From contig CAYWFC010000002.1 of assembly GCA_964457935.1 (NCBI GenBank), positions 1-59,521 on the forward strand: 59,521 nt of DNA, read 5' to 3'. Both the position numbers and the translations under genes were made by a program. This document shows, piece after piece, positions 4,328 through 59,521 of the stretch. This DNA comes from an uncultured Lachnospiraceae bacterium (lineage in GTDB: Bacteria > Bacillota > Clostridia > Christensenellales > UBA1242). Each line of letters opens with the position of its first letter. Within the stretch, counting starts at the first letter, position 1. Below the pieces are notes generated by a model. It worked only from the letters and a program-made list of their open reading frames with translations, was not told the DNA's origin and did no database searches.

Positions 4328-4349
4328 ATCTGATATTGAAGGCATATTT

Positions 4350-14300: not shown

Positions 14301-17300
14301 TCAATGGCTGATTACACTGGTATAGTGACACTTGATAATAATGGTACGCTGAGTAAAGATAATAAGTATCTAAATGACAGCGTCACAGTGAAGGTAAAAG
14401 CATCATCTATATTCGCTGAAGATAAATATCTCTACATCACTCTCTCGAGCCCTGTCAGTGTAATAGAAAACAGTGATAATAAGACTAATGTAGCATATCA
14501 AGGTACGACCTTCGCTATAGCACAGTTTTTAGACAAAGAGATCACTCCTACTGCGGAAAATAGCACACTGATAATCAGACAAAATGCCCAAAATGTAATA
14601 TTGACATATAAATTAAATGACCAAGACTTTACTGATGATATAGGTAGCACAGAGAATACAATATTAATAGATACCAGTGGTATGGATACTGGCTCGTATA
14701 TATTCAAGATATATTTAGACGGCATATGTTTGAAAGAATATGAATTCCAGATCAAATCTAATGTGGAACTAATCACTAAATATACTGAAAACAACCGTTA
14801 TGTAATGAAGCCGGATGATAGTAAAGATGTTTCAGAATTAGTACAGATAAAGGCATACGATATAGAAGAAAAATATTATGTTTCGTACGATGAGCCAGAC
14901 CAAGAAGTAAAGATTATTAATATAGAACATGGCGGATATCTGACAGTGACTGACAATACTATCACTGCTGGCTGGATAGAGAGTAACACGCAAGACACAT
15001 ATGTATACTTTAATGGCGACGAAAGTCTGAAATTATATATCCGCATAGAGAACGATATGTCTGCTGGTCTGAATGTTAGCGAAGGTACTGCTGCTACTGC
15101 TATAGATATGAGTGGCAAACTCGTCGTTGATGGTGAAGGCTGGAATATATCTAATATCACTGCTGATGACACCAATGTGAAATATATCGATGGTAAATTG
15201 ATATATAACGCATTCGTATCAGTAAACACGACTGTCACTCTGAATGTCACCATAGTGAATGACGGCAAGAAGTGGACGTTTGACCACACATTCACATTTA
15301 CACCACTATTGCCTACTATATCTACTGATGCAGTGGTAAAAGCTGGTAAATCATATAAAATCACTGACTTTATATCTTACAAACTGACATATGATTATGT
15401 AGAAAACTCTGAGATAAAGAGCGGTACTAGAGATGTAACTATCACTATAGGGTCACCGAAAGTCGAACAATTAGAAAGTTTTGACCATATATTTAGTACT
15501 TTGGCTACAAAAGACATCATTAGCGTGAATGTCAACGACCAATCTTCATTCACGATAGGTACTAATGTGGGCAACGGCGCTGAGATCACTCTGACTGTGA
15601 AAGTGGAGTATGAGAACATTAGTTACTTTATAAATGATTTTGCCATTGTGGCAAAGCTTACTGAGGAATTGATAGTCACTTATCCTACTATCACAGACGG
15701 CGCAGAGAATGTCAAAGCAGGCGATAGCATCAATATGTTCGCTATAGACGACCGTTTCGGCTCTAGTTATCAGCGCGTGATACATGGGTCCACCGCTAAA
15801 GTACAGTATCTGGATAGTACATATGAGACATTAGGATACCAAGGCGTGAGCGAACTAGTGCACATTGACGGCGGTGTAGTGACATTCGACAGCGCATTTA
15901 TGAATATGGGCAGTGGCACAGTGACATTGGTCATCACTACCAGCACTGGCAGGAGCGCTAAGTACGTAGTCAATGTCATGGCTGTCAGCGACAAGGAATA
16001 TTCGTTCGAAGGTAAAGACGATGGACAGATAGTGAAAGATAGTGCGACTTTAGACCTAACCGAGTATCTCACTATCAAAGATCAGTATGGCATAGCTATC
16101 ACTGAATATACAGTGGTGGCAGTAGACGGCGCTGAGTATATCAATACCAACAAGATAAATGACGGCGTATTGACTGGTAAAGAAATTACATTCCAGACTG
16201 TATATAGCACTCATATCATCAAATTCGCTATATATATCAATATCAATAACAACATAGTATTCGTAGGCAACTATAGCATTACCTTAGTGCCTGATGTGAC
16301 AGTGACTGTGGATGAAACAGTAGAAGATGAACTAAAAGCAGTTAAAGACCCTATATCTTATGAGTACAAACTGAAACTTATCACAGATGAAGACGCTGAT
16401 TTTGCTGACTTACTCACAGTGACATATGGTGATGAGTCTATCGAAATCAATAACATAACCTGTGATGATAGTGATGACCGTATGGCTATCGATGGTAATA
16501 CTGTCACATTCAGGCCAGTGGCTAGTGAGACTACATATCATCTGCATCTGTATTACATATTGAGTGAAGAAATAGAAAAATATTTCGTCATCGACGTGAC
16601 TGTCACTGTAACCCCAGGTGAGTATTTCAAGTCTGATGTTAAGTCTAATATCAATCCAGATGCCGGCCCAATAAACATGGGTATTGGTAGTGAATGCGAT
16701 AAAGACTTCATCTTGGAAAAAGTATTGGCTGATGACTTCAAGAATACGCTCCTTGATGAATACGGTAAATTAAAAACGAAAGAAATATCTATCTATGACA
16801 AGAGCGGGAACGTGGTAGATGGAAGTTACTTTAGTGCTGTGAATGCGACTACTTATATAGAGTATACTTTCGAGACATCATTTGGTGCTAGACAGACATT
16901 CACATTCGTGGTATATCCTAACATTAGTGATAAGATGGATTATACACAAAGTAAAGGCGAAACATCTGTTAATGCTGTAGAGGCTACGATAACAACTGGT
17001 GATAACACTAATGGGTCTACTATTAAATTGAGTGACTATGTAAATATAAAGTATAGAAATGAAAATAACTATCAAATTCAAGGCATGGCCCTCAATGTCA
17101 CTGTCGCAGACAATGCTTATAAAGGGTATTTGCTAGGCTATGATGCGAGCACCTGTACTATAAAATTCGCGCACAGTGCGATGAGAAAGACATTCTGTCT
17201 CAACATACAAGTGCCATTTGTACAAGTGCCATTTGGCGATAATACGTATTTCGCTGAGATATACAAGCTATGGGTCACTATACCTGCGACTTATGGTATG

Positions 17301-46007: not shown

Positions 46008-46151
46008 AATATTTTCTCCTTTATTTGATATGAATATGATAGCACATCTGGTGACTAAATGCAAGTATTTTTTGATATATTCCGAAATGAATGATTTTCA
46101 CACAAAAGGGTGCCAATCTATATAATAATGGTAGAGACACAGGAGTATGAT

Positions 46152-47198
46152 ATGAAGTGCAAATGTAATAAACTTAGACAGCCTAGACCTTATGAGAAGG
46201 TGAAATACGGTCCCATGGGAGCAAGGGGTGCTACCGGTCTGACTGGTCCGACTGGCGCGACAGGCGCTACTGGCGCAACGGGTGCGACGGGACCTACAGG
46301 CGCTACTGGTGTCACTGGTCCTACTGGAGAGGAGATAGCCATAGAGCGTGTGACTACCATAGAGCCGGGTCAGCCAGCGGATGTGAAGTCTAGGAGAGAG
46401 AATAATACTAATTATCTAGAGTTTTTTATACCACGAGGGGCGGACGGACTGTCTGAGAAGATAGTGATAGGCAATATCACCACAGTGGAGTCAAATGAAC
46501 AAGCCACTGTGACGGACAGGTATGACAATGCCACCCACACCATGGACTTTGCTCTGCCTAGGGGAGAGAAAGGCGACAAGGGCGACACGGGACCGAGAGG
46601 ATTCCCCGGGGAGATAGGTATCAGCGAAGTGATCACTATAGACGGCACTGAGACGGTGGAGCCGGATGAGCCAGCCGAGGTGCAAGACGACTTCGATAGG
46701 AATATACATCACTTGACATTTTATATACCGAAAGGGGTAAAAGGAGATAAAGGCGAACGAGGCGAAAAGGGTGAACAAGGCGATGACGGACCACCGGGGC
46801 TGACACCTGACTTTAACGCCACGATATACAATCCTAACGACCAGATGCTAGTCAATCAGACTGCGCTCACTATGGGCGAAGTGGAACTAAATAATGGCTT
46901 CAAGATACAAGACAGTAGTCTGATAGTGCCTACTACAGGGACATTCTTGGTGTCGTTCTCGGTGAATTATTCTGACACAGCGACCAATGGCGACTATGTC
47001 GGCATAGCAGTCAATGATGTGCTGGTGACTTCGTCCAAAAGACCTGTGTGCCAAAATGGCAACTCGAGCGCTACATTCGCGACCTTGCTGAATAAAGATG
47101 ATAAAGTCAATCTGGTAGCTAATGTGTCACAAAACAAAACTCTAAAGTCTGACACAGCCCCTAGCGCCATGCTGTCAGTAATGATGATAGCGTACTAA
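46152..47198 (+). CDS. collagen-like protein with three interleaved beta modules and C1q/BclA-like C-terminal domain
   Basis: ATG 46152 after [42 protein letters not shown], then three modules ending ...F(F/A/Y)(I/L)P(R/K)G followed by G-x-y runs ([41 protein letters not shown]). Confidence 0.75.
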
Positions 47199-50538: not shown

Positions 50539-51198
50539 TTACTTATCTGTCCAATATTTGCGGACTTTTTCGAAATGCGTAATACGCTTTTCGATTTTAC
50601 TTATCTCTTTTGGGTAGAAAAAATTCAGTTTTTCACATAGTTTTAACATCCATTCTTTACGAGATTGATTGCTATCTATGTTAATTATTCGAGAATTAGT
50701 GATTTGGATTTGACCCCAACCTAATGCGCCGATAGAGAGACAATCCCATTTCAGATGTTCGATAGGGATTAGACGCACCGCATCGAATGACATTTTATTA
50801 TCTATTACTTTATATTCTGCTAGTAGTATTACAAAATAATTCTTATCATTTTTATAGAATTTGGACAATTTTTCTACAGAAGTCAAATTTGGCATGTTAA
50901 ACTTAGTGTCACGATTGTGGGTTTTAATATCGATGGCGAAATAATTGTCATCATTATCCATAAAAGATATATCTTCAAGCGCTCTGCGACCGAAATTGGC
51001 ATCGAAGTTTTTGGCCAATCCGGAAGGGAAACAAGTATGTATTTTTTCTTCTAGAATATTTTGCGTAATATCTCCGACTGCACGCGGATGAGTGAAAATG
51101 CGTTCATTTTCGAAATCGGGAATAGAATTTAATAAATTTAGTATATTATTTTCAATAATTTTTTGTATATTTTCTTCAAATATTTTGGGTTTATTCAC
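50539..51198 (-). CDS. Type II restriction endonuclease candidate (PD-(D/E)xK-like), specificity unknown
   Basis: Immediately downstream of the methyltransferase. GTG 51198 is preceded by AGGAG plus 7 nt and overlaps the MTase stop by 8 nt. Candidate catalytic LEDISF...FAIDIKTH (D-x13-D-x-K). The ORF-track long form to 51357 would overlap the MTase by 167 nt. Confidence 0.55.
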   Translation of the reverse strand: MNKPKIFEENIQKIIENNILNLLNSIPDFENERIFTHPRAVGDITQNILEEKIHTCFPSGLAKNFDANFGRRALEDISFMDNDDNYFAIDIKTHNRDTKFNMPNLTSVEKLSKFYKNDKNYFVILLAEYKVIDNKMSFDAVRLIPIEHLKWDCLSIGALGWGQIQITNSRIINIDSNQSRKEWMLKLCEKLNFFYPKEISKIEKRITHFEKVRKYWTDK

Positions 51199-52135
51199 CT
51201 TTTTTCTCCTTTTTCTGCTCGGATAAGGAATTTCTCTCCCAAAAAACGCCATTTGTATAACCTTGTATTGTTTTGTCATAATCGGCTCGTTCCAATCTAT
51301 ATTCTGCCCATGCGCAATACAGAGGATTTTGCTCAATGCCAATGTAATGACGACCAAGTTTTTTGGCTACGACAGATGTGGTGCCCGAGCCAAGGAATGG
51401 GTCTAAGATTACGTCACCTGCATTGCTACTGGCTAATATTATTTTGGCTAGTAATTTTTCTGGCTTTTGGGTAGGGTGTGCGGTGTTTTCAGGCATGGAC
51501 CAGTACGGTATAGAGATGTCATCCCAAAAGTTAGATGGATAAGTATTGCGATAGTTGCCATTATCAGTCTCTTCCCAATCTTTTGGTTTGCCATCGATTT
51601 TGTATGGTGCAATGACTTTGCGTCGACATTTTACGCTATCTACATTGAAAGTGTAGTTTTTTGATACAGTCGCAAACCAAATATCCTCCATGGCGTTTTT
51701 CCAATTTGTCAAAGCACCGCGACCTTTTTCTCTCTGCCATGTGATGCGATTGACTACATTGAAATATTGATTTAGAACACTGCCTATCAGCAAACTAGAC
51801 TGCCAATCGCAACAGACATATATAGATGCAGTGGGCTTTAGTAACGGAATGACTTTTTTTATCCAATTTTCGGTGTATTTAACATAATCTGTTTCGTTTA
51901 ATTTTGAAAATTTCATTCCATGAAAGTTTTTGTCTAGGTTGTAGCAAGGGTCAGCAATAATTAAGTCGACACTCTTGGCAGGCAAATAATTTAACACTTG
52001 CATAGAATCACCGAGTATTGTTTTATCCAACAACGGCTCAATGGGACTCGCAGTGTCTAATGTAATACATTTGTCAGCATATTTTTTTCCTTCTTTGAGA
52101 GAAAAATCAATAGTTTTGTTTTTAGGGGACTTCAT
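51191..52135 (-). CDS. beta-class DNA methyltransferase (N6-adenine or N4-cytosine)
   Basis: Motif IV-like IIADPCYNL near the N-terminus, HPTQKPEKLL, and motif I DPFLGSGTT near the C-terminus. This order is the beta-class permutation. Confidence 0.85.
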   Translation of the reverse strand: MKSPKNKTIDFSLKEGKKYADKCITLDTASPIEPLLDKTILGDSMQVLNYLPAKSVDLIIADPCYNLDKNFHGMKFSKLNETDYVKYTENWIKKVIPLLKPTASIYVCCDWQSSLLIGSVLNQYFNVVNRITWQREKGRGALTNWKNAMEDIWFATVSKNYTFNVDSVKCRRKVIAPYKIDGKPKDWEETDNGNYRNTYPSNFWDDISIPYWSMPENTAHPTQKPEKLLAKIILASSNAGDVILDPFLGSGTTSVVAKKLGRHYIGIEQNPLYCAWAEYRLERADYDKTIQGYTNGVFWERNSLSEQKKEKKGE

Positions 52136-52269
52136 ATGTTTAACCTCGTGCTTTTATTTTTATGATTATAACATATTTATGGATTTTTTTCAACTGGTAT
52201 TTGACTTTTGAGAAGATTTATATACTTTATGCTGACGGTGGTGTTTTGCATATGCTGTGATTATATTTG

Positions 52270-52653
52270 TTATAAATTACGCATTTCTTCAAAAAGATTA
52301 TGTTGAAACGAAGACATTATATAATAATCTTCTATTAAAGAGTTGTCTTGGCTGATACCCAATGCCACAAGAATATAAGGATATACAGTGTATGACATAT
52401 ATTGGTCAATACTACCCAAACTAGATGGAATGCATTTACAATTTTTATTCAAAACATCTGTATCGTTTATCAGGTAATATTTGATATTTTTAATATCATC
52501 ATCAATACAATTTTCCATTAGTTCTGAATTTAATAAATCAGAGTCAGATTCTTGCCCTGTCAATAACAAAGCAAATTTTTTCCTGTCAATCTCTTTTGCT
52601 TTGTATTTTGTCAGCAAAACACTTATAAATTTATTCGCATCAATTTTATCCAT
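52270..52653 (-). CDS. hypothetical protein (127 aa)
   Basis: AT-rich island ORF. RBS GGAG (from TAGGAGTTTC) a few nt upstream of ATG 52653. No motif recognised. Confidence 0.5.
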   Translation of the reverse strand: MDKIDANKFISVLLTKYKAKEIDRKKFALLLTGQESDSDLLNSELMENCIDDDIKNIKYYLINDTDVLNKNCKCIPSSLGSIDQYMSYTVYPYILVALGISQDNSLIEDYYIMSSFQHNLFEEMRNL

Positions 52654-52662
52654 ATGAAACTC

Positions 52663-52923
52663 CTACGCGACAGGACAACAATAAAATGCAAGGGCATTTG
52701 TAATGATTGTTTCAAACTTTATTGAAATCGCACTAGAACCATAATTTATACCTATATCTTCAGTCTCTGCCGTCATTTCAACGACTGAATCTTTTGAAAT
52801 ACTAAAAATACCATCAGCCGTGGATGACACAGTGGTTAAAAAATAAATGTTAAATCCAAGACTTGCCATACTAACAATTATTGTAAATGAAAATAAAATA
52901 GTGAGAATAAGTATCTTTTTCAT
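52663..52923 (-). CDS. small signal-anchored protein (86 aa), leaderless candidate
   Basis: MKKILILTILFSFTIIVSMASLGF. On the minus strand TTGACA(52962-52957)-16 nt-TATAAT(52940-52935) ends 11 nt before the ATG. No SD. Confidence 0.45.
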   Translation of the reverse strand: MKKILILTILFSFTIIVSMASLGFNIYFLTTVSSTADGIFSISKDSVVEMTAETEDIGINYGSSAISIKFETIITNALAFYCCPVA

Positions 52924-53075
52924 GATTAGTTTTAATTATAACACAAAATTTTAGGATGTCAACATAAAAATAAAAAATATCTCCAATATTCTATTTGAAA
53001 TACGTTTACTTAATTTTTGTATAAAAATCACTCCTTAATAAAATTTTGCCAATTTATCGTAGGAGTGCTGTTAAT

Positions 53076-53318
53076 TTAATCTAAATTTAACTCATCACTT
53101 TCAAAAATAGGGTTATCAAAAAATTCGGAAACAGTTATTCCCAATGTTCTAATGATAATAATCAAAGTTTTTACATTACAACTTTCTCTTCTTGCATTCA
53201 TAATATCCATCATAGTTGCGTGTGAAATTCCAGAGTTTATTTCTAATCTATATTGAGTAATATTTTTTTCTTTTAATAATTCTCGTATTCTCATTGATAT
53301 TGCTTTGCTTACTTTCAT
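53076..53318 (-). CDS. XRE-family HTH regulator (80 aa), divergent from the nucleotide cassette
   Basis: MRIRELLKEKNITQYRLEINSGISHATMMDI...IRTLGITVSEFF. RBS GGGAG. Paralog of 1079-1321. Confidence 0.8.
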   Translation of the reverse strand: MKVSKAISMRIRELLKEKNITQYRLEINSGISHATMMDIMNARRESCNVKTLIIIIRTLGITVSEFFDNPIFESDELNLD

Positions 53319-53363
53319 AACAATTCTCCCAATAAGTATATTTTAGCATACTGTCGGTTTTGC

Positions 53364-53437
53364 AATAAGTATGCAAATGCGACAATTTTCTTGATTTTAT
53401 TATTTTCTTTTGATATAATAAGTATGCAAAAACGACA
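53364..53437 (+). promoter_or_regulatory. promoter of the SLOG gene flanked and overlapped by two 21-nt direct-repeat operators
   Basis: AATAAGTATGCAAATGCGACA (53364-53384) and AATAAGTATGCAAAAACGACA (53417-53437). TTGATT (53391-53396)-17 nt-TATAAT (53414-53419). A degenerate third half-site AATAAGTATA lies at 53331-53340. Confidence 0.65.
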
Positions 53438-53452
53438 TAAGGGATATTTGAT

Positions 53453-54007
53453 ATGATTTTTAGAAAGAAAATACAAGAATTGAAAATAGATTGTGAAACG
53501 GGGTTTGAAATATTGAAAAATACAACTCTTTGTTTTACTGGTCATCGCATTCAGAAACTTCCTTGGGGAGAAAATGAAGAAGATGAGAGATGTGTTGGGA
53601 TGAAAAAGAAATTGAAAGCAAAGATTATTGAAGCAATTAAAAAAGGCTACATTTATTTCATTTCAGGTATGGCACTAGGTTTTGATATAATCTCTGCCGA
53701 AATGATATTAGAGTTAAAAAAGGAATATCCACATATTAAACTAATTGGTGCTATTCCGTGTAAAGACCAATATAAAGTTTGGAAATCATATCAAATTAAA
53801 CGATATAAGAATGTTTTGTCTAAATGTGATAGCGTTCGGTGCTTGTATGACACTTATAACGACAAGTGTATGCTTGAACGAAACGACTATATGTTAAATA
53901 ATTCATCACTTGTGATTGCATTATACGATGGTAAGGGTGGTGGAACTGGCTATACAATTAAAAAAGCAAAAGAGAAAAGTCTGAAAGTTGAAATAATTAA
54001 ACCTTAG
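53453..54007 (+). CDS. SLOG-superfamily protein of the YpsA/DUF1273 type
   Basis: CFTGHR..., ISGMALGFDIISAE, IPCKDQYKVW, ERNDYMLNNSSLVIALYDGKGGGTGYTI match the DUF1273 pattern (GHR / G-x-A-x-G-x-D / RN..M / GGT). Confidence 0.7.
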   Translation: MIFRKKIQELKIDCETGFEILKNTTLCFTGHRIQKLPWGENEEDERCVGMKKKLKAKIIEAIKKGYIYFISGMALGFDIISAEMILELKKEYPHIKLIGAIPCKDQYKVWKSYQIKRYKNVLSKCDSVRCLYDTYNDKCMLERNDYMLNNSSLVIALYDGKGGGTGYTIKKAKEKSLKVEIIKP

Positions 54008-54093
54008 ACTAGGATAAATAAATTTCAAAAATTTGTTTGTGCATTTATTTGAGATATACATAAGGCTATTTGATATAAGGCTGTCCCCATATA

Positions 54094-54122
54094 TTGATGT
54101 TTTGATCATTTTGTGTTATAAT
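54094..54122 (+). promoter_or_regulatory. internal promoter ahead of the Gmk-like gene
   Basis: TTGATG (54094-54099)-17 nt-TATAAT (54117-54122) with TGT immediately upstream of the -10. Confidence 0.55.
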
Positions 54123-54154
54123 ATGTAAAATCGATGATTTAAAGGAGATATAAT

Positions 54155-54763
54155 ATGAATATTCCAATTATTATTTCTGGACCAAGTGGCGTGGGAAAGG
54201 ATACTTTAGTAAAATCAATAACAAGTACTTATCCTGAAATAAAGGAAGCAGTTGGTTATACAACAAGAAAACCAAGAGAGAACGAGGTAGATGGCGTTGA
54301 CCTAAACTTTGTGTCCAAAGATTATTTTCGATACTTGATTGACCATGACATGTTGATAGAATACGCGATTTTTAATAATGAATTTTATGGTATGCCAAAG
54401 ACAGAATTGACTAAATTAAAAGATCAAAAAATGATATACAATATTGGGGTGTCTGGTGCAAGGACAATTAAAGAGTTAATCCCCGAGTCAATTGCTATTT
54501 TGTTGATTCCCCCATCTTATGATGAATTGGTATATCGTTTGGGAAATAGGGGGAAAGAAAGATTAAAAAACATGGCATCAGATTTAAAAGAGGCATCAAG
54601 CTTTTTCGACTATTGTTTAGTGTCGAAAATGGACAAGGTTGGTGAACTTGTTGAAAATTTTAAAGATATTTTATGTGGACATGGTGAAGAATATAGGATT
54701 GAAAATTATTTTAATCAAATTAAAGATATAACACATATCGATGAAAATGAACGTGTGATGTAA
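54155..54763 (+). CDS. guanylate kinase-family P-loop kinase (accessory copy, atypical P-loop GKDT)
   Basis: IIISGPSGVGKDTL, GYTTRKPRENEVDGVDLNFVS, EYAIFNNEFYGMPK, LLIPPSYDELVYRLGNRG align with Gmk blocks. RBS AAAGGAGA. Own promoter at 54094-54122. Confidence 0.75.
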   Translation: MNIPIIISGPSGVGKDTLVKSITSTYPEIKEAVGYTTRKPRENEVDGVDLNFVSKDYFRYLIDHDMLIEYAIFNNEFYGMPKTELTKLKDQKMIYNIGVSGARTIKELIPESIAILLIPPSYDELVYRLGNRGKERLKNMASDLKEASSFFDYCLVSKMDKVGELVENFKDILCGHGEEYRIENYFNQIKDITHIDENERVM

Positions 54764-54788
54764 AATAAAAATATTTAGCGAGGAAAAG

Positions 54789-55727
54789 ATGAGATTGATT
54801 AAAGTTGATTTTAAAGATGTGAATTTGATTCAATCTATTAACAATTTTTTAAATTTAATATCTAGCGTTGATGTTAAGCAAACACCGGAATGGTTTATAG
54901 CTAGAGAAGAATGTGGATTTGCTATTTGCTTTGCAGAAGATAAAGGAATTATTGGCTATTGCAATGTGTTTATTAATGAGAATGAGGCTTATTTGCCGAG
55001 AGGTCCGGTCACAGTCGCTAATATGTTTGATGTGTGTTTAGATTCTTTATGTGATTATATAAAAAGTTTAGGATATTCTAAAATGCGATTAAATCCTAAA
55101 ATACAAGAAAAGTTAAAAACTGATAGAAATATTAATTGTTGTGATAAAAACGATTTTAGTAAGTTGAGAGAATCGTATAGAGAAGCTATTGTAGAATTAA
55201 AAAACAAATCGGAAAATGATTTGTTGTATGAGTTTAGCAGTTCTACAAGATATCATATTAGAAAAGCTTTAAACAATAATTTGATTATCAATCTAAGTGA
55301 AATTTGTGATTTAGATGATTTTTATTCAATTTATGAAGAAACTGCAATACGTCATAATTTTATACCACATAATAAACAATATTTTGAAAATCTGATAAAG
55401 GCTTTTAAAGAGAAAATATATTTTTGTAAAATAAGTTATAACAACGAAGTTGTTGCAATGAGTTTGAATATTTTACAAGGTGATACTGTTCATTACTTGT
55501 ATGGTGCGAGTTCATCTCAAAACAACAAACTTTATGCAGCGTACTTAATGCATTGGGTAATGATTAAGTATGCACTCAACAATGGTTTTAAATTTTATAA
55601 TTTTGGGGGTGTTTTTGCGAAAGATAATGAGGTTGATAGCAAGGATTACGGTTTATTACGATTTAAATCGGGATTTTGCAAAGGTGGCTTTATTGAATAT
55701 GAGCCTGATATGATTATTTTACTATAG
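54789..55727 (+). CDS. FemAB/FemX-family aminoacyl-tRNA-dependent aminoacyltransferase-like protein (312 aa, no coiled-coil insert)
   Basis: TRYHIRKALNNNLIIN...DDFYSIYEETAIRHNFIPHNKQYFENL and HYLYGASSSQNNKLYAAYLMHWVMIKYALNNGFKFYNFGGV...YGLLRFKSGF match FemAB-family (PF02388-type) blocks as I remember them. Confidence 0.65.
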   Translation: MRLIKVDFKDVNLIQSINNFLNLISSVDVKQTPEWFIAREECGFAICFAEDKGIIGYCNVFINENEAYLPRGPVTVANMFDVCLDSLCDYIKSLGYSKMRLNPKIQEKLKTDRNINCCDKNDFSKLRESYREAIVELKNKSENDLLYEFSSSTRYHIRKALNNNLIINLSEICDLDDFYSIYEETAIRHNFIPHNKQYFENLIKAFKEKIYFCKISYNNEVVAMSLNILQGDTVHYLYGASSSQNNKLYAAYLMHWVMIKYALNNGFKFYNFGGVFAKDNEVDSKDYGLLRFKSGFCKGGFIEYEPDMIILL

Positions 55728-55736
55728 GAGAAAGTT

Positions 55737-56279
55737 ATGAAAAATATATGTTTGTTAAATGAAAGATTAAAATCAAAAAATGGAGTTGTAAAATTTACAT
55801 ATGATAAATATTGGGATGCTATTAATGCTATATGCGAGGATATAAAGGAGAAAATAAAAACCGGAGAATATAAAGATATAGCATTGGTCGGTATGGCTAG
55901 GGGAGCATTGCCGATGTTGGTGTCTGTTTCTCATGAAATTGGCGTAAGGAAAGTGTCAATGATACAACTGCAGATGAGCAATTCCGATAACCCACATGAT
56001 TATGGAAAAGTGAAACTAATAAATAAATTTATTGATAAAGATGTTAAAAAATGTATTCTTCTTGAAGATATTATATACAAAGGACAAACTACTGGAGAGG
56101 CTATTAAAATACTAAAAGCTGAGGGGATTAAGGTGGAAAGCATATATTCGTTAATAGTGGATGAAGGATATGGCAAAATAGACAACAAACCAATAGATGT
56201 TGATATAAATTATGCATATTCGCTGAAAGCAGATGAGTGGGTAAACTTTTTGTGGGAAAAAGATTTAAGAAAGGAGTAG
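55737..56279 (+). CDS. type I phosphoribosyltransferase, Gpt (xanthine-guanine PRT)-like
   Basis: IALVGMARGALPMLVSVSHEIGVRKVSMIQLQ (cf Gpt [30 protein letters not shown]). PRPP loop KCILLEDIIYKGQTT. C-terminal DEWVNFLWEKD (cf Gpt TWIEQPWD). Confidence 0.65.
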   Translation: MKNICLLNERLKSKNGVVKFTYDKYWDAINAICEDIKEKIKTGEYKDIALVGMARGALPMLVSVSHEIGVRKVSMIQLQMSNSDNPHDYGKVKLINKFIDKDVKKCILLEDIIYKGQTTGEAIKILKAEGIKVESIYSLIVDEGYGKIDNKPIDVDINYAYSLKADEWVNFLWEKDLRKE

Positions 56280-56281
56280 AA

Positions 56282-57112
56282 ATGAAACAAAGTGGTTATA
56301 ATTTGTTATTTGAATTAACACAAAGATGTAATTTAAATTGTGAATATTGTTTCTATAGAGATTATGGACGTAGTCCATCGGAATTAAACTTTGGTCAATT
56401 TCAAGGAATTATTGACAAATATGAAAACATAAAAAATATTTATTTTACTGGTGGTGAATGCACTCTAGCTACTGATTTTGTTAGTATAATACGATTGGCA
56501 AAGATGCGTGCTAATGTTGCGATTTTTACTAATGGGTTAACAATTACAAATGATGAGTTTTATAATGATATAGATGAATATATCGATAACTATATTGTTA
56601 CATTTGATAATTTTAGCAGTGATTATAAATGTAGGTTGAATACAGATTCAACTATGGAAACGATTAAAAAAATCGCAAAGAACTCCCCAAATAAGTTGAT
56701 TGTTAAGATTTGTATCAATAAATACAATCTATCAAATTTAGAATTAACGATACAAGAATTAATTGCACTGGGAGTAAAAAAGATTTCAATTAATTTTGTG
56801 CATAACATTCAATCGAATAACATAAATTTTGAGTTGAGTAAAAATGAGTTGGAAGAAGTTTTTCACACTTTGGATAAGTATAAAAGTCATCTCTTTATTA
56901 ACTTTTATGATATGATAAAAAATTTTTATCTTAATGGAGATCGTTCTGTGGAAAGATATTGTCGTGCTGGGAAGTCCTTTTATTATTATGATTGCCAAGC
57001 GAACAAGAAGGATTGCCCCGCAGAATATTGTGAAGATAGGAACTGTTTAACAAAAGAATGTATTAGTATATTTGAAATGTTTGAGGAGAATGATGATGAA
57101 TATAGTGTTTGA
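56282..57112 (+). CDS. radical SAM enzyme with C-terminal Cys-rich twitch/SPASM-like extension
   Basis: ATG 56282 after AAGGAG. CNLNCEYC (CX3CX2C), FTGGECTL (GGE SAM motif). Tail CRAGKSFYYYDCQANKKDCPAEYCEDRNCLTKEC begins with the C-x-A-G signature of SPASM/twitch domains. Confidence 0.8.
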   Translation: MKQSGYNLLFELTQRCNLNCEYCFYRDYGRSPSELNFGQFQGIIDKYENIKNIYFTGGECTLATDFVSIIRLAKMRANVAIFTNGLTITNDEFYNDIDEYIDNYIVTFDNFSSDYKCRLNTDSTMETIKKIAKNSPNKLIVKICINKYNLSNLELTIQELIALGVKKISINFVHNIQSNNINFELSKNELEEVFHTLDKYKSHLFINFYDMIKNFYLNGDRSVERYCRAGKSFYYYDCQANKKDCPAEYCEDRNCLTKECISIFEMFEENDDEYSV

Positions 57113-57737
57113 AGGGATAAATGGTGCCGGTAAAACCACTATTATTAAAAAATTAGTGGAAATAATGAAAGATGCTGGTTTAAATGTTTATCAAATAGAT
57201 GAAATTAATGAGATGTCTCCCTTAAGTTCAGTATTATCAGAAATGTATAAGACCGATACATTTTTAAGAATGAAAAAAAGTTTTAACACAGTAATTACTG
57301 AATCCTTAATTCTTGCTGCAGATTATCATTTTTTACAAGAAGCCACAAAAAATTTACAAGGTTACAAAATATTCGATAGAGATATAATTACTCAAATTGT
57401 TTATCAAAAGTATTTTTTGGCTTCACTTTATGGAGATAATAATAGTTTTTTTGAGAATTGGGAAAAGTGCATAAAATTCAATATGAAAAAAATAGACTTG
57501 ATTGTGTATATTGATGTGCCAGATGAAGTTGGCTTGGAAAGAACGATACAAAGAGATGGTGCAACCTTTTATGAATCAGATATAAAAATTATGAGGGAAT
57601 TGCATAAATTGCAAAAACAATACGCCATAAAGTTTTGTGAAGAAAATTCTATTCCACTTATATTAATTGATGGAACAAAAAGAATAGATAAAAATGCGGA
57701 TTTCTTATATTCAAAAATAAAGGGAATAGAGTGTTAA
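57096..57737 (+). CDS. thymidylate kinase-family (dTMP/CMPK2-like) nucleotide kinase
   Basis: NIVFEGINGAGKTT P-loop, LILAADYHF, IFDRDIITQIVYQ (DR motif), DLIVYIDVPDEVGLERT lid region. GAGGAG RBS 57083-57088. Overlaps the radical SAM stop by 17 nt (start could be 57090, 57093 or 57096). Confidence 0.75.
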   Translation: MNIVFEGINGAGKTTIIKKLVEIMKDAGLNVYQIDEINEMSPLSSVLSEMYKTDTFLRMKKSFNTVITESLILAADYHFLQEATKNLQGYKIFDRDIITQIVYQKYFLASLYGDNNSFFENWEKCIKFNMKKIDLIVYIDVPDEVGLERTIQRDGATFYESDIKIMRELHKLQKQYAIKFCEENSIPLILIDGTKRIDKNADFLYSKIKGIEC

Positions 57738-57740
57738 ACT

Positions 57741-58212
57741 ATGATTTATATTGATTTTGATGGTGTGTTTGTTGACACATGGCCGTTGATATGTAGTATT
57801 ACAAAGAAGTTAATAATAGTGATCTAATAGAAGAGGAAAAACTGAAAAATTCATTTGCAGAACTTGATTGGGAGTTTGTATTGAATAACAGTTATCAGAA
57901 TAAACAAAACATTCAAATTTTGCAAAACTTAAGCGACGATGTTATTTCTAGTAAGATAAAAATATTAACAAAAGTAAATTCAAAAGAAGAAAAAAACAAA
58001 AGGAATTATTTCTAAAGAACAATAATATAAAAATAAAAATGTTCGCTGAGACTTTTGAGAGATTTAGGGCAGATGCAGTCGATCCTATGAATAACATTTT
58101 AATAGATGATGAAATAAAGAATTTAGATGAGTGGGAAAAGAAGGGCGGAAAGCCTATTTTATATAATAAAAATGATAATAATCGCGACTCTGCTGGGGGT
58201 GTAATATTTTAA
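57741..58212 (+). pseudogene. HAD-superfamily phosphatase (NT5C-like 5'(3')-deoxyribonucleotidase type) interrupted by two frameshifts
   Basis: Frame 1: MIYIDFDGVFVDTW (DxDG motif I), stop at 57825. Reading continues in another frame (YKEVNNSDLIEEEKLKNSFAELDW...ILTKVNSKEEK). After an A7 run (57990-57996) it continues in a third frame (...NNILIDDEIKNLDEWEKKGGKPILY, motif IV), stop at 58210-58212. Confidence 0.6.
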
Positions 58213-58262
58213 GTATAAAACAATACCAAGCTTGTCTGATAAAATTTTAAGGTAAAAAACTT

Positions 58263-58291
58263 TTGACATAAAATAGTTCTTGTGTTATACT
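58263..58291 (+). promoter_or_regulatory. promoter ahead of the Ham1-Nudix genes
   Basis: TTGACA (58263-58268)-17 nt-TATACT (58286-58291), TGT upstream of the -10. Confidence 0.6.
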
Positions 58292-58310
58292 AAACTTAGT
58301 GGAGGAGAGT

Positions 58311-58871
58311 ATGAAAGATTTAATTTATGTGACAGGAAACAAATATAAGATTTTTACTGCGAGGAAATTTTTAGAACCATATGGTATTAATGTGATAGGT
58401 AAAAAGATTTATTGTCCAGAAATACAAGAGGATTCAATTGAAGAGGTCGCTAAGTTTTCCGCTGAATATGCCAGCAAAGCATTGGGGTGTGCTGTTTTAA
58501 AAAATGATATGGGTTTAGTTATTCCAGCATTAAATGGATTTCCTTCTGCCTATACTCATTATGTTGAAGATACTCTTGGTGAGGATGGTATTTTAAAATT
58601 GATGGAAGGGGAAAAGAATAGAGAGGCTTATTTTTTGGAATGTTTGGCTTATGCCGAACCGGGCAAAGAAACAAAGATCTTTATTTCTAAAACAGAAGGT
58701 ACACTTGATTTTGAAAAAAGCGGAGATTATGGATGGAGTTGGGATAGAATTTTTATTCCTAAAGGACAAACTTCTACTATGGCAAATTTTAATGACGATG
58801 AGAGAGCTTCGTTTTGGTCTGAGGATGGGTACATTGATTTAAAAAATTTTATTATGCATGAAGATAAATGA
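58311..58871 (+). CDS. Ham1/RdgB (ITPase)-family non-canonical NTP pyrophosphatase-like protein
   Basis: ATG 58311 after GGAGGAG. IYVTGNKYK, PEIQEDSIEE, NDMGLVIPALNGFPSAY, REAYFLECLAY, WSWDRIFIP align with RdgB/Ham1 blocks (TGN.gK, EiqE, DDsGL.v.aLnG.PG, R.A.f, GYDPIF). Confidence 0.7.
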   Translation: MKDLIYVTGNKYKIFTARKFLEPYGINVIGKKIYCPEIQEDSIEEVAKFSAEYASKALGCAVLKNDMGLVIPALNGFPSAYTHYVEDTLGEDGILKLMEGEKNREAYFLECLAYAEPGKETKIFISKTEGTLDFEKSGDYGWSWDRIFIPKGQTSTMANFNDDERASFWSEDGYIDLKNFIMHEDK

Positions 58872-58890
58872 AATAATGAGGTGGGAAAGA

Positions 58891-59439
58891 ATGTTTAATT
58901 TGGTTAACGAGTTAAAAACTTATAAGGCTTTTGATAAAGAAGAAGAGTGTGATAGGCTGAAAACGCTTGAATTCCTGTCACAACAAACGAATTGTTTTTC
59001 TAGATCTAATTTACTGGGACATGTAAATGCTGGTGGACTTGTAGTAGATGGCTATGGAAATATCCTATTGAATCATCATAAAGTTTTAGATATGTGGTTT
59101 CAATTTGGTGGACATAGTGATGGGAATGAGAATTCTCTTGAGGTCGCCAAAAGAGAAATCGAAGAAGAGTCTGGTATTAAAGACATTAATTTGCTGACGA
59201 ATGGCATTTTTGATGTTAGTGTTAATTTGATTGATAATAATGAAAAAAAACACGAACCAGAGCATTATCACTATGATATTAATTTTTTGTTTAAAATATC
59301 AAGGAAGAATTTCATTGTATCTTCAGAATCTAAGGAATTAAAGTGGGTATCAATCGATGAAGCTTTAAAATTAATTAATTCCGATGATAAAAGCATGAGA
59401 AGGATGATTGAAAAATATAAAAAGATGTTAAATCTCTAA
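58891..59439 (+). CDS. Nudix hydrolase
   Basis: Complete Nudix box GGHSDGNENSLEVAKREIEEESGI (GX5EX7REUXEEXGU). ATG 58891 after GAGGTGGG. Confidence 0.85.
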   Translation: MFNLVNELKTYKAFDKEEECDRLKTLEFLSQQTNCFSRSNLLGHVNAGGLVVDGYGNILLNHHKVLDMWFQFGGHSDGNENSLEVAKREIEEESGIKDINLLTNGIFDVSVNLIDNNEKKHEPEHYHYDINFLFKISRKNFIVSSESKELKWVSIDEALKLINSDDKSMRRMIEKYKKMLNL

Positions 59440-59470
59440 TGAATTAACCATATTCTTAATAGAGGTAAAA

Positions 59471-59521
59471 ATGGAAACATTGAAAGCAGGGTGTTTTTTA
59501 GTAAACACAGAAACAAAAAGT
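59471..59521 (+). CDS. 5' end of a further gene (METLKAGCFLVNTETKS...), possibly a second Nudix-type protein
   Basis: ATG 59471 after AGAGGTAAAA. Open to the window end. The N-terminus resembles the first beta strand of Nudix proteins, but 17 aa is too short to call. Confidence 0.3.
   Translation, partial: METLKAGCFLVNTETKS

What the first reader, a model, noticed from the sequence alone, without database searches (positions are those of the whole stretch)
56282..57737. Translationally coupled radical SAM / thymidylate-kinase-family pair: viperin-CMPK2-like logic with a different rSAM architecture
Seen: the rSAM stop (57110-57112) lies 17 nt inside the Tmk-like ORF, whose GAGGAG RBS is within the rSAM 3' end. 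The rSAM has CNLNCEYC and GGE motifs. It also has a C-terminal CRAGKSFYYYDCQANKKDCPAEYCEDRNCLTKEC segment.

Established: eukaryotic viperin is genomically paired with CMPK2, a thymidylate-kinase-family enzyme, and prokaryotic viperins are often next to nucleotide kinases. Viperins are not known to carry auxiliary-cluster Cys-rich tails. Twitch or auxiliary clusters do occur in small-molecule rSAMs such as MoaA (a GTP substrate) and BtrN.

Inference: this is a nucleotide-modifying rSAM fed by its own kinase, with chemistry that may differ from ddhNTP formation.
Basis: partly seen in the sequence, partly recalled or inferred. Interest (0 to 1): 0.65.

Follow-up and report, generated by a model that had tools for sequence, protein, structure and literature searches.

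The report
Nucleotide-tailoring operon with new radical SAM
The overlapping radical-SAM and kinase genes are real, but they are not a viperin pair: together with a phosphoribosyltransferase they form the core of a rare, mobile, undescribed operon that most likely turns a guanine-like base into a toxic modified nucleoside or nucleotide.

Summary
The rSAM gene (56282-57112) ends 17 nt inside the Tmk-like gene (start 57096), and GAGGAG lies at 57083-57088.

- The rSAM fails the viperin model (38.7 bits against a cutoff of 180). It belongs to a small unnamed family of about 100 clusters at 90% identity. It carries four near-invariant tail cysteines, enough for one auxiliary Fe-S cluster.
- In all 29 loci examined, covering seven operon layouts, this rSAM occurs with a Tmk-like kinase and also a purine-type phosphoribosyltransferase. 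In one lineage the transferase is fused to the rSAM.
- Variable partners are nucleotide-sugar aminotransferases, FemAB-type tRNA-dependent aminoacyl transferases, GNAT, a methyltransferase, NUDIX, Ham1 and HAD. They also include a queuosine-precursor importer or, in one layout, QueC/D/E plus FolE.
- In the window the pair sits in a 5.5-kb, 29%-GC cassette: GK-FemAB-PRTase-rSAM-kinase-HAD(frameshifted)-Ham1-NUDIX.

Best reading (inferred): a base is converted to NMP and then to NDP/NTP. The rSAM then modifies the ribose, followed by amination or aminoacylation and dephosphorylation. This resembles the puromycin and 3'-amino-3'-deoxyguanosine pathways, with the rSAM taking the place of the NAD-dependent dehydrogenase. 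The product and its role (antibiotic or antiviral) are unresolved. I found no published description.

The parts
54094..54122 (+). Promoter-like site (TTGATG-17-TATAAT with an extended TG) upstream of the first cassette gene.
   Evidence: This is a consensus match only. The region is AT-rich and promoter-like sites are barely enriched (54 found against 42 +/- 6 expected). It lies inside the block that is 92.9% identical to L112.
54155..54763 (+). Guanylate-kinase-like NMP kinase (202 aa).
   Evidence: Pfam Guanylate_kin, E = 2.2e-27. NCBIfam guanylate kinase scores 134 bits, below the cutoff of 160. Conserved in layouts A and B.
54789..55727 (+). FemAB-family transferase (312 aa). Members of this family use aminoacyl-tRNA as the donor.
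   Evidence: Pfam FemAB, E = 3.7e-34. It is 44% identical to the L001 homologue and 31% to the L096 homologue. Present in layouts A, B, E and G.
55737..56279 (+). Type I purine-like phosphoribosyltransferase (180 aa), translationally coupled to the rSAM gene.
   Evidence: Pfam Pribosyltran, E = 6e-13. The best NCBIfam and PDB matches are HGPRT, XPRT and purine PRTases. It is fused N-terminally to the rSAM in P0009, P0010 and P0012. Present in all 29 loci.
56282..57112 (+). Radical SAM enzyme of an unnamed family (276 aa). It has CX3CX2C at C16/C20/C23, GGE at residues 57-59, and a C-terminal four-cysteine auxiliary-cluster motif (C227, C245, C255, C260).
57083..57088 (+). GAGGAG ribosome-binding site for the kinase gene, located inside the rSAM 3' end.
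   Evidence: It lies 7 nt upstream of the ATG at 57096.
57096..57737 (+). Thymidylate-kinase-fold NMP kinase (213 aa). It overlaps the rSAM gene by 17 nt.
   Evidence: Pfam Thymidylate_kin scores 47.8 bits (cutoff 27) and dNK scores 37.9 bits. The NCBIfam dTMP kinase model scores 53.4 bits, below the cutoff of 83.25. The P-loop FEGxxGxGK, the DRD motif and the lid RTxxRD are conserved. Homologues lie on the same contigs as the rSAM homologues.
57741..58255 (+). HAD-like phosphatase gene (motif DFDGV), frameshifted in the window. It is either a pseudogene or an assembly error.
   Evidence: It is intact (171 aa) in L109 and L112. The window copy has 1-nt deletions near 57795 and in the A-run near 57990, and a 1-nt insertion in the G-run near 58196. 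Homologous to HAD-like genes in layouts B and C.
58263..58291 (+). Promoter-like site (TTGACA-17-TATACT) upstream of the Ham1 gene.
   Evidence: The sequence is conserved in L109 and L112. Consensus match only.
58299..58871 (+). Ham1/RdgB-family pyrophosphatase for non-canonical purine NTPs (190 aa).
   Evidence: Pfam Ham1p_like, E = 3.3e-30. NCBIfam XTP/dITP diphosphatase scores 158.7 bits. It is 80% identical to the L001 homologue.
58858..59439 (+). NUDIX hydrolase (193 aa), the last complete gene of the cassette.
   Evidence: Pfam NUDIX, E = 2.2e-9. Conserved in L109 and L112. NUDIX genes occur in five of the seven layouts.

Best explanation
The rSAM and the Tmk-like kinase, together with the upstream PRTase, form the invariant core of a small, horizontally mobile nucleotide-tailoring operon. 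The operon most likely makes a modified guanine-type nucleoside or nucleotide antimetabolite, probably built on a 7-deazaguanine base.

Proposed flow:
1. The PRTase joins a free base to PRPP to give an NMP. This is inferred from the family assignment and from the fusion to the rSAM.
2. The Tmk-like kinase, and in this layout also the guanylate-kinase-like enzyme, raise the NMP to NDP/NTP. This is inferred.
3. The rSAM abstracts a ribose hydrogen and oxidises or dehydrates the sugar, most likely to a 3'-keto nucleotide. Its single auxiliary [4Fe-4S] cluster would act as the electron sink or substrate anchor. This is inferred from two things: nucleotide-sugar aminotransferases co-occur in four of the seven layouts, and BtrN/BtrS provides a precedent.
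4. The sugar or the base is then decorated.
   - In other layouts this is done by a DegT-type aminotransferase, an N-methyltransferase-like protein or a GNAT.
   - In the window's layout it is done by a FemAB-type aminoacyl-tRNA-dependent transferase.
5. Ham1, NUDIX and the HAD-like phosphatase strip the phosphates. This either releases the nucleoside or keeps the toxic triphosphate in check.

The logic parallels the puromycin and 3'-amino-3'-deoxyguanosine pathways (Pur10/Pur4/Pur7/Pur3). An oxygen-independent rSAM takes the place of the NAD-dependent dehydrogenase. A PRTase and kinase front end is added to bring in an unusual base.
For: Conserved linkage
- rSAM, PRTase and Tmk-like kinase occur together in 29 of 29 loci and in seven gene orders.
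- A PRTase-rSAM fusion exists.
- Kinase homologues sit on the same contigs as rSAM homologues.

Accessory genes are all nucleotide-directed
- The aminotransferases best match PseC, WecE and DesI, which are nucleotide-sugar enzymes.
- MutT/NudI-like NUDIX, Ham1 and HAD-like genes recur.
- In one layout CYTH and HD genes replace them.

Link to 7-deazaguanine
- Vut_1 genes in three layouts pass the NCBIfam 'queuosine precursor transporter' cutoff (141-180 bits against 51).
- Layout D instead carries QueC (which passes its cutoff) together with QueD-, QueE- and FolE-like genes.

The rSAM
- The AlphaFold model is confident (pLDDT 88.7).
- The tail has four near-invariant cysteines.

Variable tailoring enzymes around a fixed core are typical of a biosynthetic cluster
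- They comprise FemAB, GNAT and a class I methyltransferase fold carrying a DFAWPW motif.

Published precedents
- adgA-E (MFS transporter plus Pur10, Pur4, Pur7 and Pur3 homologues) makes 3'-amino-3'-deoxyguanosine from GTP (PMC9239236).
- TubE is a 7-carboxy-7-deazaguanine PRTase and TubG is a Nudix hydrolase in tubercidin biosynthesis (PMC6112128).

Mobility
- The cassette is 29% GC in a 42% GC chromosome.
- It is 92.9% identical to a copy at a different chromosomal site.
Against: - No enzyme activity or product is known for any member of the family. The rSAM reaction is inferred from context only.
- The window's layout, and layouts B and G, have no aminotransferase. If the rSAM makes a ketone, it is unclear where the amine for FemAB comes from. 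FemAB may instead acylate a base amine such as the aminomethyl group of preQ1, or a hydroxyl.
- The window's layout has neither the importer nor the Que genes, so the deazaguanine link is by extension from relatives.
- No exporter is present in any layout, which is odd for a secreted antibiotic.
- No preQ1 or other riboswitch was found.
- WYL and HTH regulators, and restriction-modification neighbours in some loci, fit a defence role as well as they fit a biosynthetic one.
- By sequence and fold the rSAM is no closer to the known twitch dehydrogenase BtrN (E = 3e-5) than to peptide maturases or viperin.
Confidence: 0.45

Rival explanations
1. Viperin-like antiviral system. The operon makes a chain-terminating or otherwise toxic NTP analogue that acts inside the producing cell during phage infection. 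The kinases would deliver the triphosphate. NUDIX, Ham1 and HAD would act as the off-switch or as self-protection.
For: - The rSAM gives weak matches to the PADLOC pVip models (54.8 bits) and the kinase to VakA (35.7 bits).
- Viperins are among the best fold matches (E = 8e-9, TM about 0.6).
- A WYL-domain regulator heads the commonest layout.
- Some loci lie next to a type I restriction-modification system with an AAA_21 gene or a DNA methyltransferase (window).
- The cassette is a mobile low-GC island.
- No exporter is present.
- 3'-amino-GTP is a known RNA chain terminator (PMC9239236).
Against: - The rSAM fails the curated viperin model (38.7 bits against 180).
- Operons of eight to ten genes with a base importer, an aminotransferase, FemAB and a methyltransferase are unlike known defence systems.
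- Nothing beyond weak generic matches was found in PADLOC for the other genes.
- The family was not found in viral collections. That result is neutral for this hypothesis.
Confidence: 0.2
2. A metabolic salvage or recycling route for queuosine-family bases. The imported base (queuine, preQ1 or preQ0) would be ribosylated and remodelled for the cell's own use, not made into a toxin.
For: - Bona fide queuosine-precursor transporters occur in three layouts.
- The loci come from metagenomes of uncultured bacteria. The few source names given are Bacilli, Tenericutes/Mycoplasmatota or simply 'bacterium'.
- A rSAM 'queuine lyase' is mentioned in the queuosine-salvage literature (titles and hits).
Against: - Known queuosine salvage needs no PRTase, NMP kinase, NTP pyrophosphatase, sugar aminotransferase or FemAB.
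- tRNA-guanine transglycosylase uses the free base.
- No TGT or QueA/G/H gene lies in any of the operons.
- The family is rare and patchy: about 20-25 clusters at 50% identity among 1.84 billion representatives. It sits on mobile islands, unlike a housekeeping salvage route.
Confidence: 0.1
3. Supply of a modified (deoxy)nucleotide for incorporation into the DNA or RNA of a mobile element. This would be a pre-replicative hypermodification with a 7-deazaguanine nucleotide.
For: - Layout D lies beside PolA, an SNF2 helicase and an HNH gene, and carries QueC/D/E and FolE.
- In the stretch examined it has no DpdA transglycosylase.
- It also carries an HD phosphohydrolase.
- A PRTase and kinase route is what a nucleotide-level pathway would require.
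Against: - All other layouts are chromosomal bacterial operons with NTP-destroying enzymes.
- No family member was found in IMG/VR or INPHARED.
- Only 16 kb of the 38-kb contig was seen, so a DpdA gene may lie elsewhere.
- The literature holds that all known 7-deazaguanine DNA modifications are post-replicative (PMC10516641).
- Aminotransferase and FemAB steps are hard to fit into a polymerase substrate.
Confidence: 0.07
4. The adjacency is coincidental. On this view the rSAM is a peptide (RiPP or sulfatase-type) maturase and the kinase is an ordinary dTMP kinase.
For: - The best single PDB sequence match is SkfB (E = 1.7e-9), and the best fold matches include CteB, SkfB and anSME.
- The nearest outgroup rSAMs (26-31% identity) lie in clusters with a SPASM rSAM and M16/M29 peptidases.
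Against: - The linkage holds in 29 of 29 loci despite gene-order shuffling.
- The rSAM is fused to a PRTase in one lineage.
- No precursor peptide, peptidase or RiPP transporter lies in any operon. The short ORF after NUDIX is a truncated NUDIX remnant.
- The kinase is below the dTMP-kinase cutoff.
- The tail has four conserved cysteines, not the seven-cysteine SPASM motif, and Pfam SPASM does not match.
Confidence: 0.03

Closest known systems
Prokaryotic viperins with associated nucleotide kinases (pVip/VakA), and eukaryotic viperin-CMPK2
   Same: - A rSAM with a partial TIM-barrel core sits next to a P-loop NMP kinase.
- A nucleotide substrate is likely.
- Fold similarity to viperin is TM about 0.6.
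   Different: - The rSAM fails the curated viperin model (38.7 bits against 180).
- It has a C-terminal four-cysteine auxiliary-cluster tail.
- It always co-occurs with a PRTase.
- It sits in 5-10-gene operons with aminotransferase, FemAB, NUDIX and HAD genes.
Aminonucleoside pathways: puromycin (Pur10/Pur4/Pur7/Pur3/Pur6/Pac) and Photorhabdus adgA-E, which makes 3'-amino-3'-deoxyguanosine (PMC9239236)
   Same: - The same enzyme classes recur: a sugar-type aminotransferase, a NUDIX pyrophosphatase and a monophosphatase.
- An N-acyl or aminoacyl transferase is present, and in one layout a GNAT.
- The substrate is a guanine-type nucleotide.
- The gene set is a low-GC mobile cluster.
   Different: - No Pur10/AdgB NAD-dependent oxidoreductase is present. 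A rSAM occupies that slot, which is an inference.
- A PRTase and one or two kinases are added at the front.
- Aminoacylation would be tRNA-dependent (FemAB) and not carried out by a Pur6-type synthetase.
- The window's layout lacks the aminotransferase.
BtrN with BtrS (butirosin pathway): a twitch rSAM dehydrogenase paired with a DegT-family aminotransferase (from my own knowledge; BtrN is PDB 4m7t)
   Same: - A small rSAM (250-280 aa) with one auxiliary [4Fe-4S] cluster.
- It works alongside a DegT/DnrJ/EryC1-type aminotransferase.
- It offers an oxygen-independent alternative to an NAD-dependent dehydrogenase.
   Different: - Similarity is only at the fold level (Foldseek E = 3e-5, TM 0.46-0.51).
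- The substrate here would be a nucleotide ribose, not an aminocyclitol.
- The spacing of the cysteine motif differs.
7-Deazapurine nucleoside antibiotic pathways: toyocamycin (ToyH) and tubercidin (TubE/TubG) (PMC6112128)
   Same: - A purine-type PRTase installs a 7-deazaguanine base onto PRPP.
- A Nudix or phosphatase step finishes the pathway.
- FolE, QueD, QueE (and QueC) supply the base in layout D.
   Different: - Those pathways are actinomycete pathways that convert the G-type nucleotide to an A-type one (GMP reductase, adenylosuccinate enzymes).
- They have no second rSAM, no Tmk-like kinase, no aminotransferase and no FemAB.
- Here the base is mostly imported (Vut_1).
MoaA (GTP 3',8-cyclase) and the uncharacterised 'tungsten cofactor oxidoreductase rSAM maturase' family (TIGR04317)
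   Same: - TIGR04317 is the best curated-family hit (80 bits). MoaA matches at E = 4e-11 and 7e-11 (profile against PDB).
- MoaA is a rSAM with an auxiliary cluster, and it abstracts the 3'-H of a guanine nucleotide.
   Different: - The scores are far below both cutoffs (380 and 284).
- There is no molybdenum-cofactor or tungsten-enzyme gene context.
- The tail has four conserved cysteines, whereas MoaA has a three-cysteine motif (the MoaA count is from my own knowledge).

Membership tests
Viperin (prokaryotic pVip / RSAD2) | Score above the curated family model cutoff (NCBIfam NF038283, 180 bits). | tested here: not met
   38.7 bits. The PADLOC pVip models score 54.8 and 53.8 bits, which is the level of generic rSAM similarity.
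   Four near-invariant C-terminal cysteines (C227, C245, C255, C260) are present in 58-64 of 64 family members.
Viperin (prokaryotic pVip / RSAD2) | Converts an NTP to a 3'-deoxy-3',4'-didehydro-NTP. | not testable with these tools
   This needs anaerobic enzymology.
Radical SAM superfamily | A CX3CX2C cluster motif, a GGE SAM-binding motif, and a score above the Pfam PF04055 gathering cutoff. | tested here: met
   C16, C20 and C23 are invariant in 64 of 64 sequences, as is GGE at residues 57-59. PF04055 scores 56.5 bits against a cutoff of 29.5.
SPASM/twitch subclass of radical SAM enzymes | A C-terminal cysteine-rich domain that binds auxiliary Fe-S cluster(s). Seven cysteines define SPASM. 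Fewer cysteines and one cluster define twitch. | tested here: inconclusive
   - Four conserved cysteines fit one cluster, which is twitch-like.
- Pfam SPASM (PF13186) does not match.
- Fold matches include CteB, SkfB, anSME, PqqE and BtrN at TM 0.46-0.69.
- Cluster binding has not been shown.
Thymidylate kinase family (PF02223) / bona fide dTMP kinase | The Pfam family cutoff, and separately the NCBIfam dTMP kinase equivalog cutoff (83.25 bits). | tested here: inconclusive
   PF02223 scores 47.8 bits against a cutoff of 27, so the family cutoff is met. TIGR00041 scores 53.4 bits, below 83.25, so the equivalog cutoff is not met. The protein has the Tmk fold but is probably not a dTMP kinase. 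The P-loop, the DRD motif and the lid arginines are conserved.
Puromycin/ADG-type aminonucleoside gene cluster | A Pur10/AdgB-type NAD-dependent nucleotide 3'-dehydrogenase. | tested here: not met
   No oxidoreductase gene of that kind lies in any of the seven layouts. The rSAM is proposed as a functional substitute.
Puromycin/ADG-type aminonucleoside gene cluster | A Pur4-type (DegT family) aminotransferase. | tested here: not met
   It is absent from the window cassette and from layouts B and G. It is present in layouts C, D, E and F, where PseC/WecE/DesI-like models score 124-163 bits.
Puromycin/ADG-type aminonucleoside gene cluster | A NUDIX NTP pyrophosphatase (Pur7) and a monophosphatase (Pur3). 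| tested here: met
   NUDIX lies at 58858-59439 and Ham1 at 58299-58871. The HAD-like gene at 57741-58255 is present but frameshifted in the window. It is intact in L109 and L112.
7-Deazapurine nucleoside pathway (Toy/Tub type) | A purine-type PRTase together with a source of 7-deazaguanine (FolE/QueD/QueE, with or without QueC, or import). | tested here: inconclusive
   The PRTase is present in the window. The window has no deazaguanine source. The importer occurs in layouts B and C and the Que genes in layout D. The base specificity of the PRTase has not been tested.

The most novel reading that the evidence does not exclude
The cassette makes an aminoacylated nucleotide or nucleoside on a 7-deazaguanine or guanine scaffold. 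The product would be a puromycin-like mimic of the aminoacyl-tRNA 3' end, or an aminoacyl-tRNA-synthetase inhibitor. Two reactions in it have not been described:
- a radical SAM enzyme that oxidises the ribose of a nucleotide, acting as an anaerobic counterpart of Pur10/AdgB;
- a FemAB-type enzyme that transfers an amino acid from tRNA onto a nucleotide.

A still bolder variant, with a probability of about 0.07, is also not excluded. In that variant the same core supplies 7-deazaguanine nucleotides for direct polymerase incorporation. [quoted passage not shown]
Probability: 0.2. Interest if true: 0.85.

Novelty: new variant of a known kind. Interest (0 to 1): 0.62.

Why it matters
If the model holds, this would be a new radical SAM reaction class acting on nucleotide sugars. 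It would also be a new family of nucleoside antimetabolites, or antiviral nucleotides, made by uncultured anaerobic bacteria known only from metagenomes.

It would link the traffic of queuosine precursors to chemical warfare or immunity. Bacteria are known to salvage these 7-deazaguanine bases from their surroundings.

It would show how anaerobes replace NAD-dependent sugar oxidation in aminonucleoside biosynthesis.

The compact 5.5-kb cassette can be tested directly by heterologous expression.

Even if the specific chemistry is wrong, the invariant triad of PRTase, rSAM and kinase defines an uncharacterised enzyme system with a clear experimental handle.

Tried and rejected
- **Viperin membership.** Rejected on the curated cutoff.
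- **Riboswitch clue to the ligand.** I found no preQ1 or other riboswitch. The searches covered the whole window and nine related loci at gathering thresholds, and 52-59.5 kb of the window at E <= 1. The only cis-regulatory RNA match was a T-box on an unrelated ValRS gene in L011.
- **Search for the family in phages and plasmids.**
  - INPHARED tblastn gave only hits of about 26% identity.
  - Two IMG/VR scans found no family member.
  - PLSDB gave only generic rSAMs at 22-25% identity.
- **GTDB genome scan.** The scan was wasted. I therefore have no organism-level census.
- **RiPP precursor search.** The only short conserved ORF after NUDIX is a truncated NUDIX remnant, followed by a terminator and a tRNA or tmRNA 3' end.
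- **Test of whether the unknown 298-aa protein of the commonest layout is a hidden FemAB.** hhalign gave probability 0.05. The structure prediction instead gave a class I methyltransferase fold.
- **SLOG/YpsA gene (53453-54007).** It is not part of the cassette. Homology with L112 starts at 53935, and L109 and L112 have no SLOG gene.
- **Literature.** Nine full-text searches found no description of this operon or of the rSAM family. The library does not cover subscription journals.


Full report
**1. The observation**

The + strand of window 54155-59439 carries a tight run of genes.
- The rSAM ORF starts at ATG 56282. That is 2 nt after the TAG of the upstream PRTase gene, whose 3' end contains AAGGAG.
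- The rSAM ORF ends at TGA 57110-57112.
- GAGGAG lies at 57083-57088, followed by in-frame ATGs at 57090, 57093 and 57096.
- All 23 aligned kinase homologues start with MNIVFEG.
- CNLNCEYC occupies residues 16-23, GGE occupies residues 57-59, and the cysteine-rich tail occupies residues 227-260.

Short overlaps are common inside operons, and this one is kept only in the close relatives L109 and L112. The overlap itself is therefore weak evidence. The conserved linkage described in section 3 is the strong evidence.

**2. What the two proteins are**

*The rSAM*
- It passes Pfam Radical_SAM (56.5 bits) and nothing else.
- Against NCBIfam, its best hit is the uncharacterised tungsten-cofactor rSAM maturase family (80 bits against a cutoff of 380). 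The prokaryotic viperin model scores 38.7 bits against a cutoff of 180.
- A family profile searched against PDB sequences gives SkfB 2.5e-14, CteB 1.8e-11, MoaA 7e-11 and viperins about 6e-8.
- A confident AlphaFold model (pLDDT 88.7) matches CteB, viperin, SkfB, anSME, PqqE, BtrN and MoaA about equally. TM scores are 0.46-0.69.
- The protein is therefore not a viperin and cannot be placed in any characterised family.
- Database searches recover about 100 unnamed clusters at 90% identity, with a sharp drop in score below them.
- Only about 20-25 clusters at 50% identity score above 150 bits among 1.84 billion representatives. The family is rare.
- In 64 aligned members, C16, C20, C23, C245 and C260 are invariant. 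C255 is present in 63 of 64 and C227 in 58 of 64, with the other six shifted by one or two residues. C238 (47 of 64) and C250 (2 of 64) are not conserved.
- That pattern fits one auxiliary cluster (twitch-like) and not a seven-cysteine SPASM domain.

*The kinase*
- It has the Tmk fold. PF02223 scores 47.8 bits, and the P-loop, the DRD motif and the lid arginines are conserved.
- It is below the dTMP-kinase equivalog cutoff (53.4 bits against 83.25).

**3. Genomic context**

I examined 28 related loci plus the window. They fall into seven layouts.

| Layout | Loci | Gene order |
|---|---|---|
| A | window, L109, L112 | GK-FemAB-PRTase-rSAM-kinase-HAD-Ham1-NUDIX |
| B | L001-L007 | NUDIX-LysR-HAD-Ham1-GK-(Vut_1)-FemAB-PRTase-rSAM-kinase-(Vut_1). 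PRTase and rSAM are fused into one 447-aa protein in P0009 |
| C | L008-L010, L102-L108 (commonest) | WYL regulator-298-aa protein-PRTase-NUDIX-rSAM-kinase-aminotransferase-Vut_1-HAD-NUDIX |
| D | L013, L014 | CYTH-rSAM-PRTase-kinase-aminotransferase-QueC-QueD-QueE-FolE-HD-NadE, beside PolA, SNF2 and HNH genes |
| E | L096, L097 | rSAM-NUDIX-PRTase-kinase-aminotransferase-FemAB |
| F | L098, L100, L101 | GNAT-rSAM-kinase-aminotransferase-PRTase |
| G | L011, L012 | FemAB-unknown-rSAM-PRTase-Ham1-kinase |

- The rSAM, the PRTase and the Tmk-like kinase are present in all 29 loci.
- Kinase homologues found independently lie on the same contigs as the rSAM homologues.
However, the unit is a triad, and the PRTase is the closest partner.

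**4. What the accessory genes say**
- The aminotransferases are of the nucleotide-sugar type. PseC, WecE and DesI models score 124-163 bits.
- The NUDIX proteins are MutT/NudI-like NTP pyrophosphatases.
- Ham1 is a pyrophosphatase for non-canonical purine NTPs.
- The 171-177-aa protein is HAD-like, with the DFDGV motif.
- The Vut_1 proteins pass the NCBIfam 'queuosine precursor transporter' cutoff in three layouts (141-180 bits against 51).
- Layout D replaces the importer with the de novo route. QueC passes its cutoff. The QueD-, QueE- and FolE-like genes score just below theirs or well below.
- The 298-aa protein of layout C has a class I methyltransferase fold and a DFAWPW motif. One homologue is annotated with the D12 N6-methyltransferase Pfam family.
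- The nearest outgroup rSAMs (26-31% identity) lie in RiPP-like clusters. The family itself has no peptide-related neighbour. The only short ORF after NUDIX is a truncated NUDIX remnant.

**5. The cassette in the window**
- Window 53935-59502 is 92.9% identical to L112. There the same eight genes lie between RNase R/HTH/HD_4-TGS genes and smpB.
- In L109 and L112 the cassette ends next to the 3' end of a tRNA or tmRNA gene.
- GC content is 29% against 42.5% for the rest of the window.
- The window is otherwise an ordinary bacterial chromosome, carrying iPGM, GluRS, PFOR and ABC-transporter genes.
- The SLOG/YpsA gene and the HTH gene upstream are not part of the shared block.
- The HAD-like gene is broken in the window by three single-base indels, two of them in homopolymer runs. 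This may be decay or it may be sequencing error.

**6. Mechanism**

Shown:
- The family assignments.
- The invariant triad.
- The PRTase-rSAM fusion.
- The conserved auxiliary cysteines.
- The link to deazaguanine supply in four of the seven layouts.

Inferred, step by step:
1. The PRTase makes an NMP from a guanine-type base, probably a 7-deazaguanine.
2. The kinase(s) raise it to NDP/NTP.
3. The rSAM abstracts a ribose hydrogen and yields a keto (or dehydrated) sugar.
4. Aminotransferase, FemAB, GNAT or methyltransferase enzymes decorate it.
5. NUDIX, Ham1 and HAD remove the phosphates.

Precedents:
- The Photorhabdus adg operon has an MFS transporter plus Pur10, Pur4, Pur7 and Pur3 homologues. 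It makes 3'-amino-3'-deoxyguanosine from GTP (PMC9239236).
- TubE and TubG are a CDG-PRTase and a Nudix hydrolase in tubercidin biosynthesis (PMC6112128).
- From my own knowledge, BtrN and BtrS pair a twitch rSAM dehydrogenase with a DegT-family aminotransferase.

The weakest point is that layouts A, B and G, including the window, have FemAB but no aminotransferase. The acceptor for the amino acid is therefore unknown. It could be the aminomethyl group of preQ1, a hydroxyl, or an amine made by a housekeeping enzyme.

**7. Role**

A fixed core with swappable tailoring enzymes looks like a diversifying biosynthetic cluster. That favours an antimetabolite.

Three things keep an intracellular antiviral role alive:
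- No exporter is present.
- WYL and HTH regulators head some layouts.
- Some loci have restriction-modification neighbours.

I rate the readings as follows.

| Reading | Confidence |
|---|---|
| Antimetabolite biosynthesis | 0.45 |
| Viperin-like defence | 0.20 |
| Queuosine-precursor salvage | 0.10 |
| Nucleotide supply for nucleic-acid hypermodification | 0.07 |
| Coincidental peptide maturase | 0.03 |

**8. Novelty**

Nine literature searches found no description. No database source names these proteins beyond 'hypothetical'. The current deazaguanine literature states that all known DNA modifications of this type are post-replicative (PMC10516641). A PRTase and kinase route to free 7-deazaguanine nucleotides outside actinomycete antibiotic pathways would therefore be new.

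I classify the finding as a new variant of a known kind: a nucleoside-analogue pathway built around an uncharacterised rSAM family. Interest is 0.62.

Noticed in passing
window 57741-58255: The HAD-like phosphatase gene of the cassette is frameshifted. It has 1-nt deletions near 57795 and in an A-run near 57990, and a 1-nt insertion in a G-run near 58196. The gene is intact (171 aa) in L109 and L112. The window copy is either a pseudogene or carries homopolymer sequencing errors.
   Followed up: yes
window 52200-59521; L112 6841-12406: The last 7 kb of the window is a low-GC island (29% against 42.5%). The 5.5-kb cassette from 53935 onward is 92.9% identical to a copy at a different chromosomal site. 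In L109 and L112 the cassette abuts the 3' end of a tRNA or tmRNA gene, which suggests an integrated mobile island.
   Followed up: partly
window 59470-59521; L109 7951-8106: A short ORF after the NUDIX gene (METLKA.CFLV...YSFPEGH) looks like the truncated N-terminus of a second NUDIX gene. In the relatives it is followed by a hairpin terminator.
   Followed up: partly
window 53076-54007: A SLOG/YpsA-family gene (53453-54007, +) is divergently paired with a small Xre-type HTH gene (53076-53318, -). They lie just upstream of the cassette but are not part of the block shared with L112 and L109. A DNA N6/N4 methyltransferase gene lies at 51191-52135 (-).
   Followed up: partly
window 11385-20174 and 20602-22824: A 2929-aa ORF and the following 740-aa ORF have no significant Pfam match even at E = 0.1 (the 740-aa ORF has only sub-threshold DUF hits). 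They are giant proteins of unknown nature in an otherwise ordinary chromosomal stretch.
   Followed up: no
window 46110-47198: An ORF with collagen triple-helix repeats and a weak match to the BclA C-terminal domain. It resembles an exosporium or surface-fibre protein.
   Followed up: no
window 4014-4101: tRNA-Ser(GGA) overlaps the mechanical GTG start of ORF 4020-5261, an ABC ATPase. The real start of that gene must lie further downstream.
   Followed up: no
L008 6189-7085 and homologues (P0298-P0417): A 298-aa protein that heads the commonest operon layout has no Pfam or PDB sequence match of its own (one homologue, P0386, carries PF02086). It folds as a class I SAM methyltransferase and carries a DFAWPW motif like the (D/N)PP(Y/F/W) motif of amino-methyltransferases. 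More than 200 clusters exist. The few source names given are Bacilli, Tenericutes/Mycoplasmatota or simply 'bacterium'.
   Followed up: partly
L110 2469-9329; L111 3994-11643: The nearest outgroup rSAMs sit in a conserved cluster with a SPASM rSAM, an EF-G paralogue, M29 and M16 peptidases and unknown proteins. It may be a RiPP system with a ribosome-protection-type immunity gene.
   Followed up: no
L112 4984-6399; L011 11618-12232: (p)ppGpp-related genes lie next to two versions of the operon: an HD_4-TGS hydrolase-type gene in L112 and a small RelA_SpoT synthetase in L011. This may be coincidence, or it may hint at guanine-nucleotide signalling.
   Followed up: no
BFVD hits to model m6c54fd43e620: The best viral fold match is a 571-aa Myoviridae protein annotated as 7-cyano-7-deazaguanine synthase, which may be a QueC-rSAM fusion. 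rSAMs of Campylobacter phages, including CP220, whose DNA is reported to carry 7-amido-7-deazaguanine (PMC10516641), also match at the fold level (15-17% identity).
   Followed up: no
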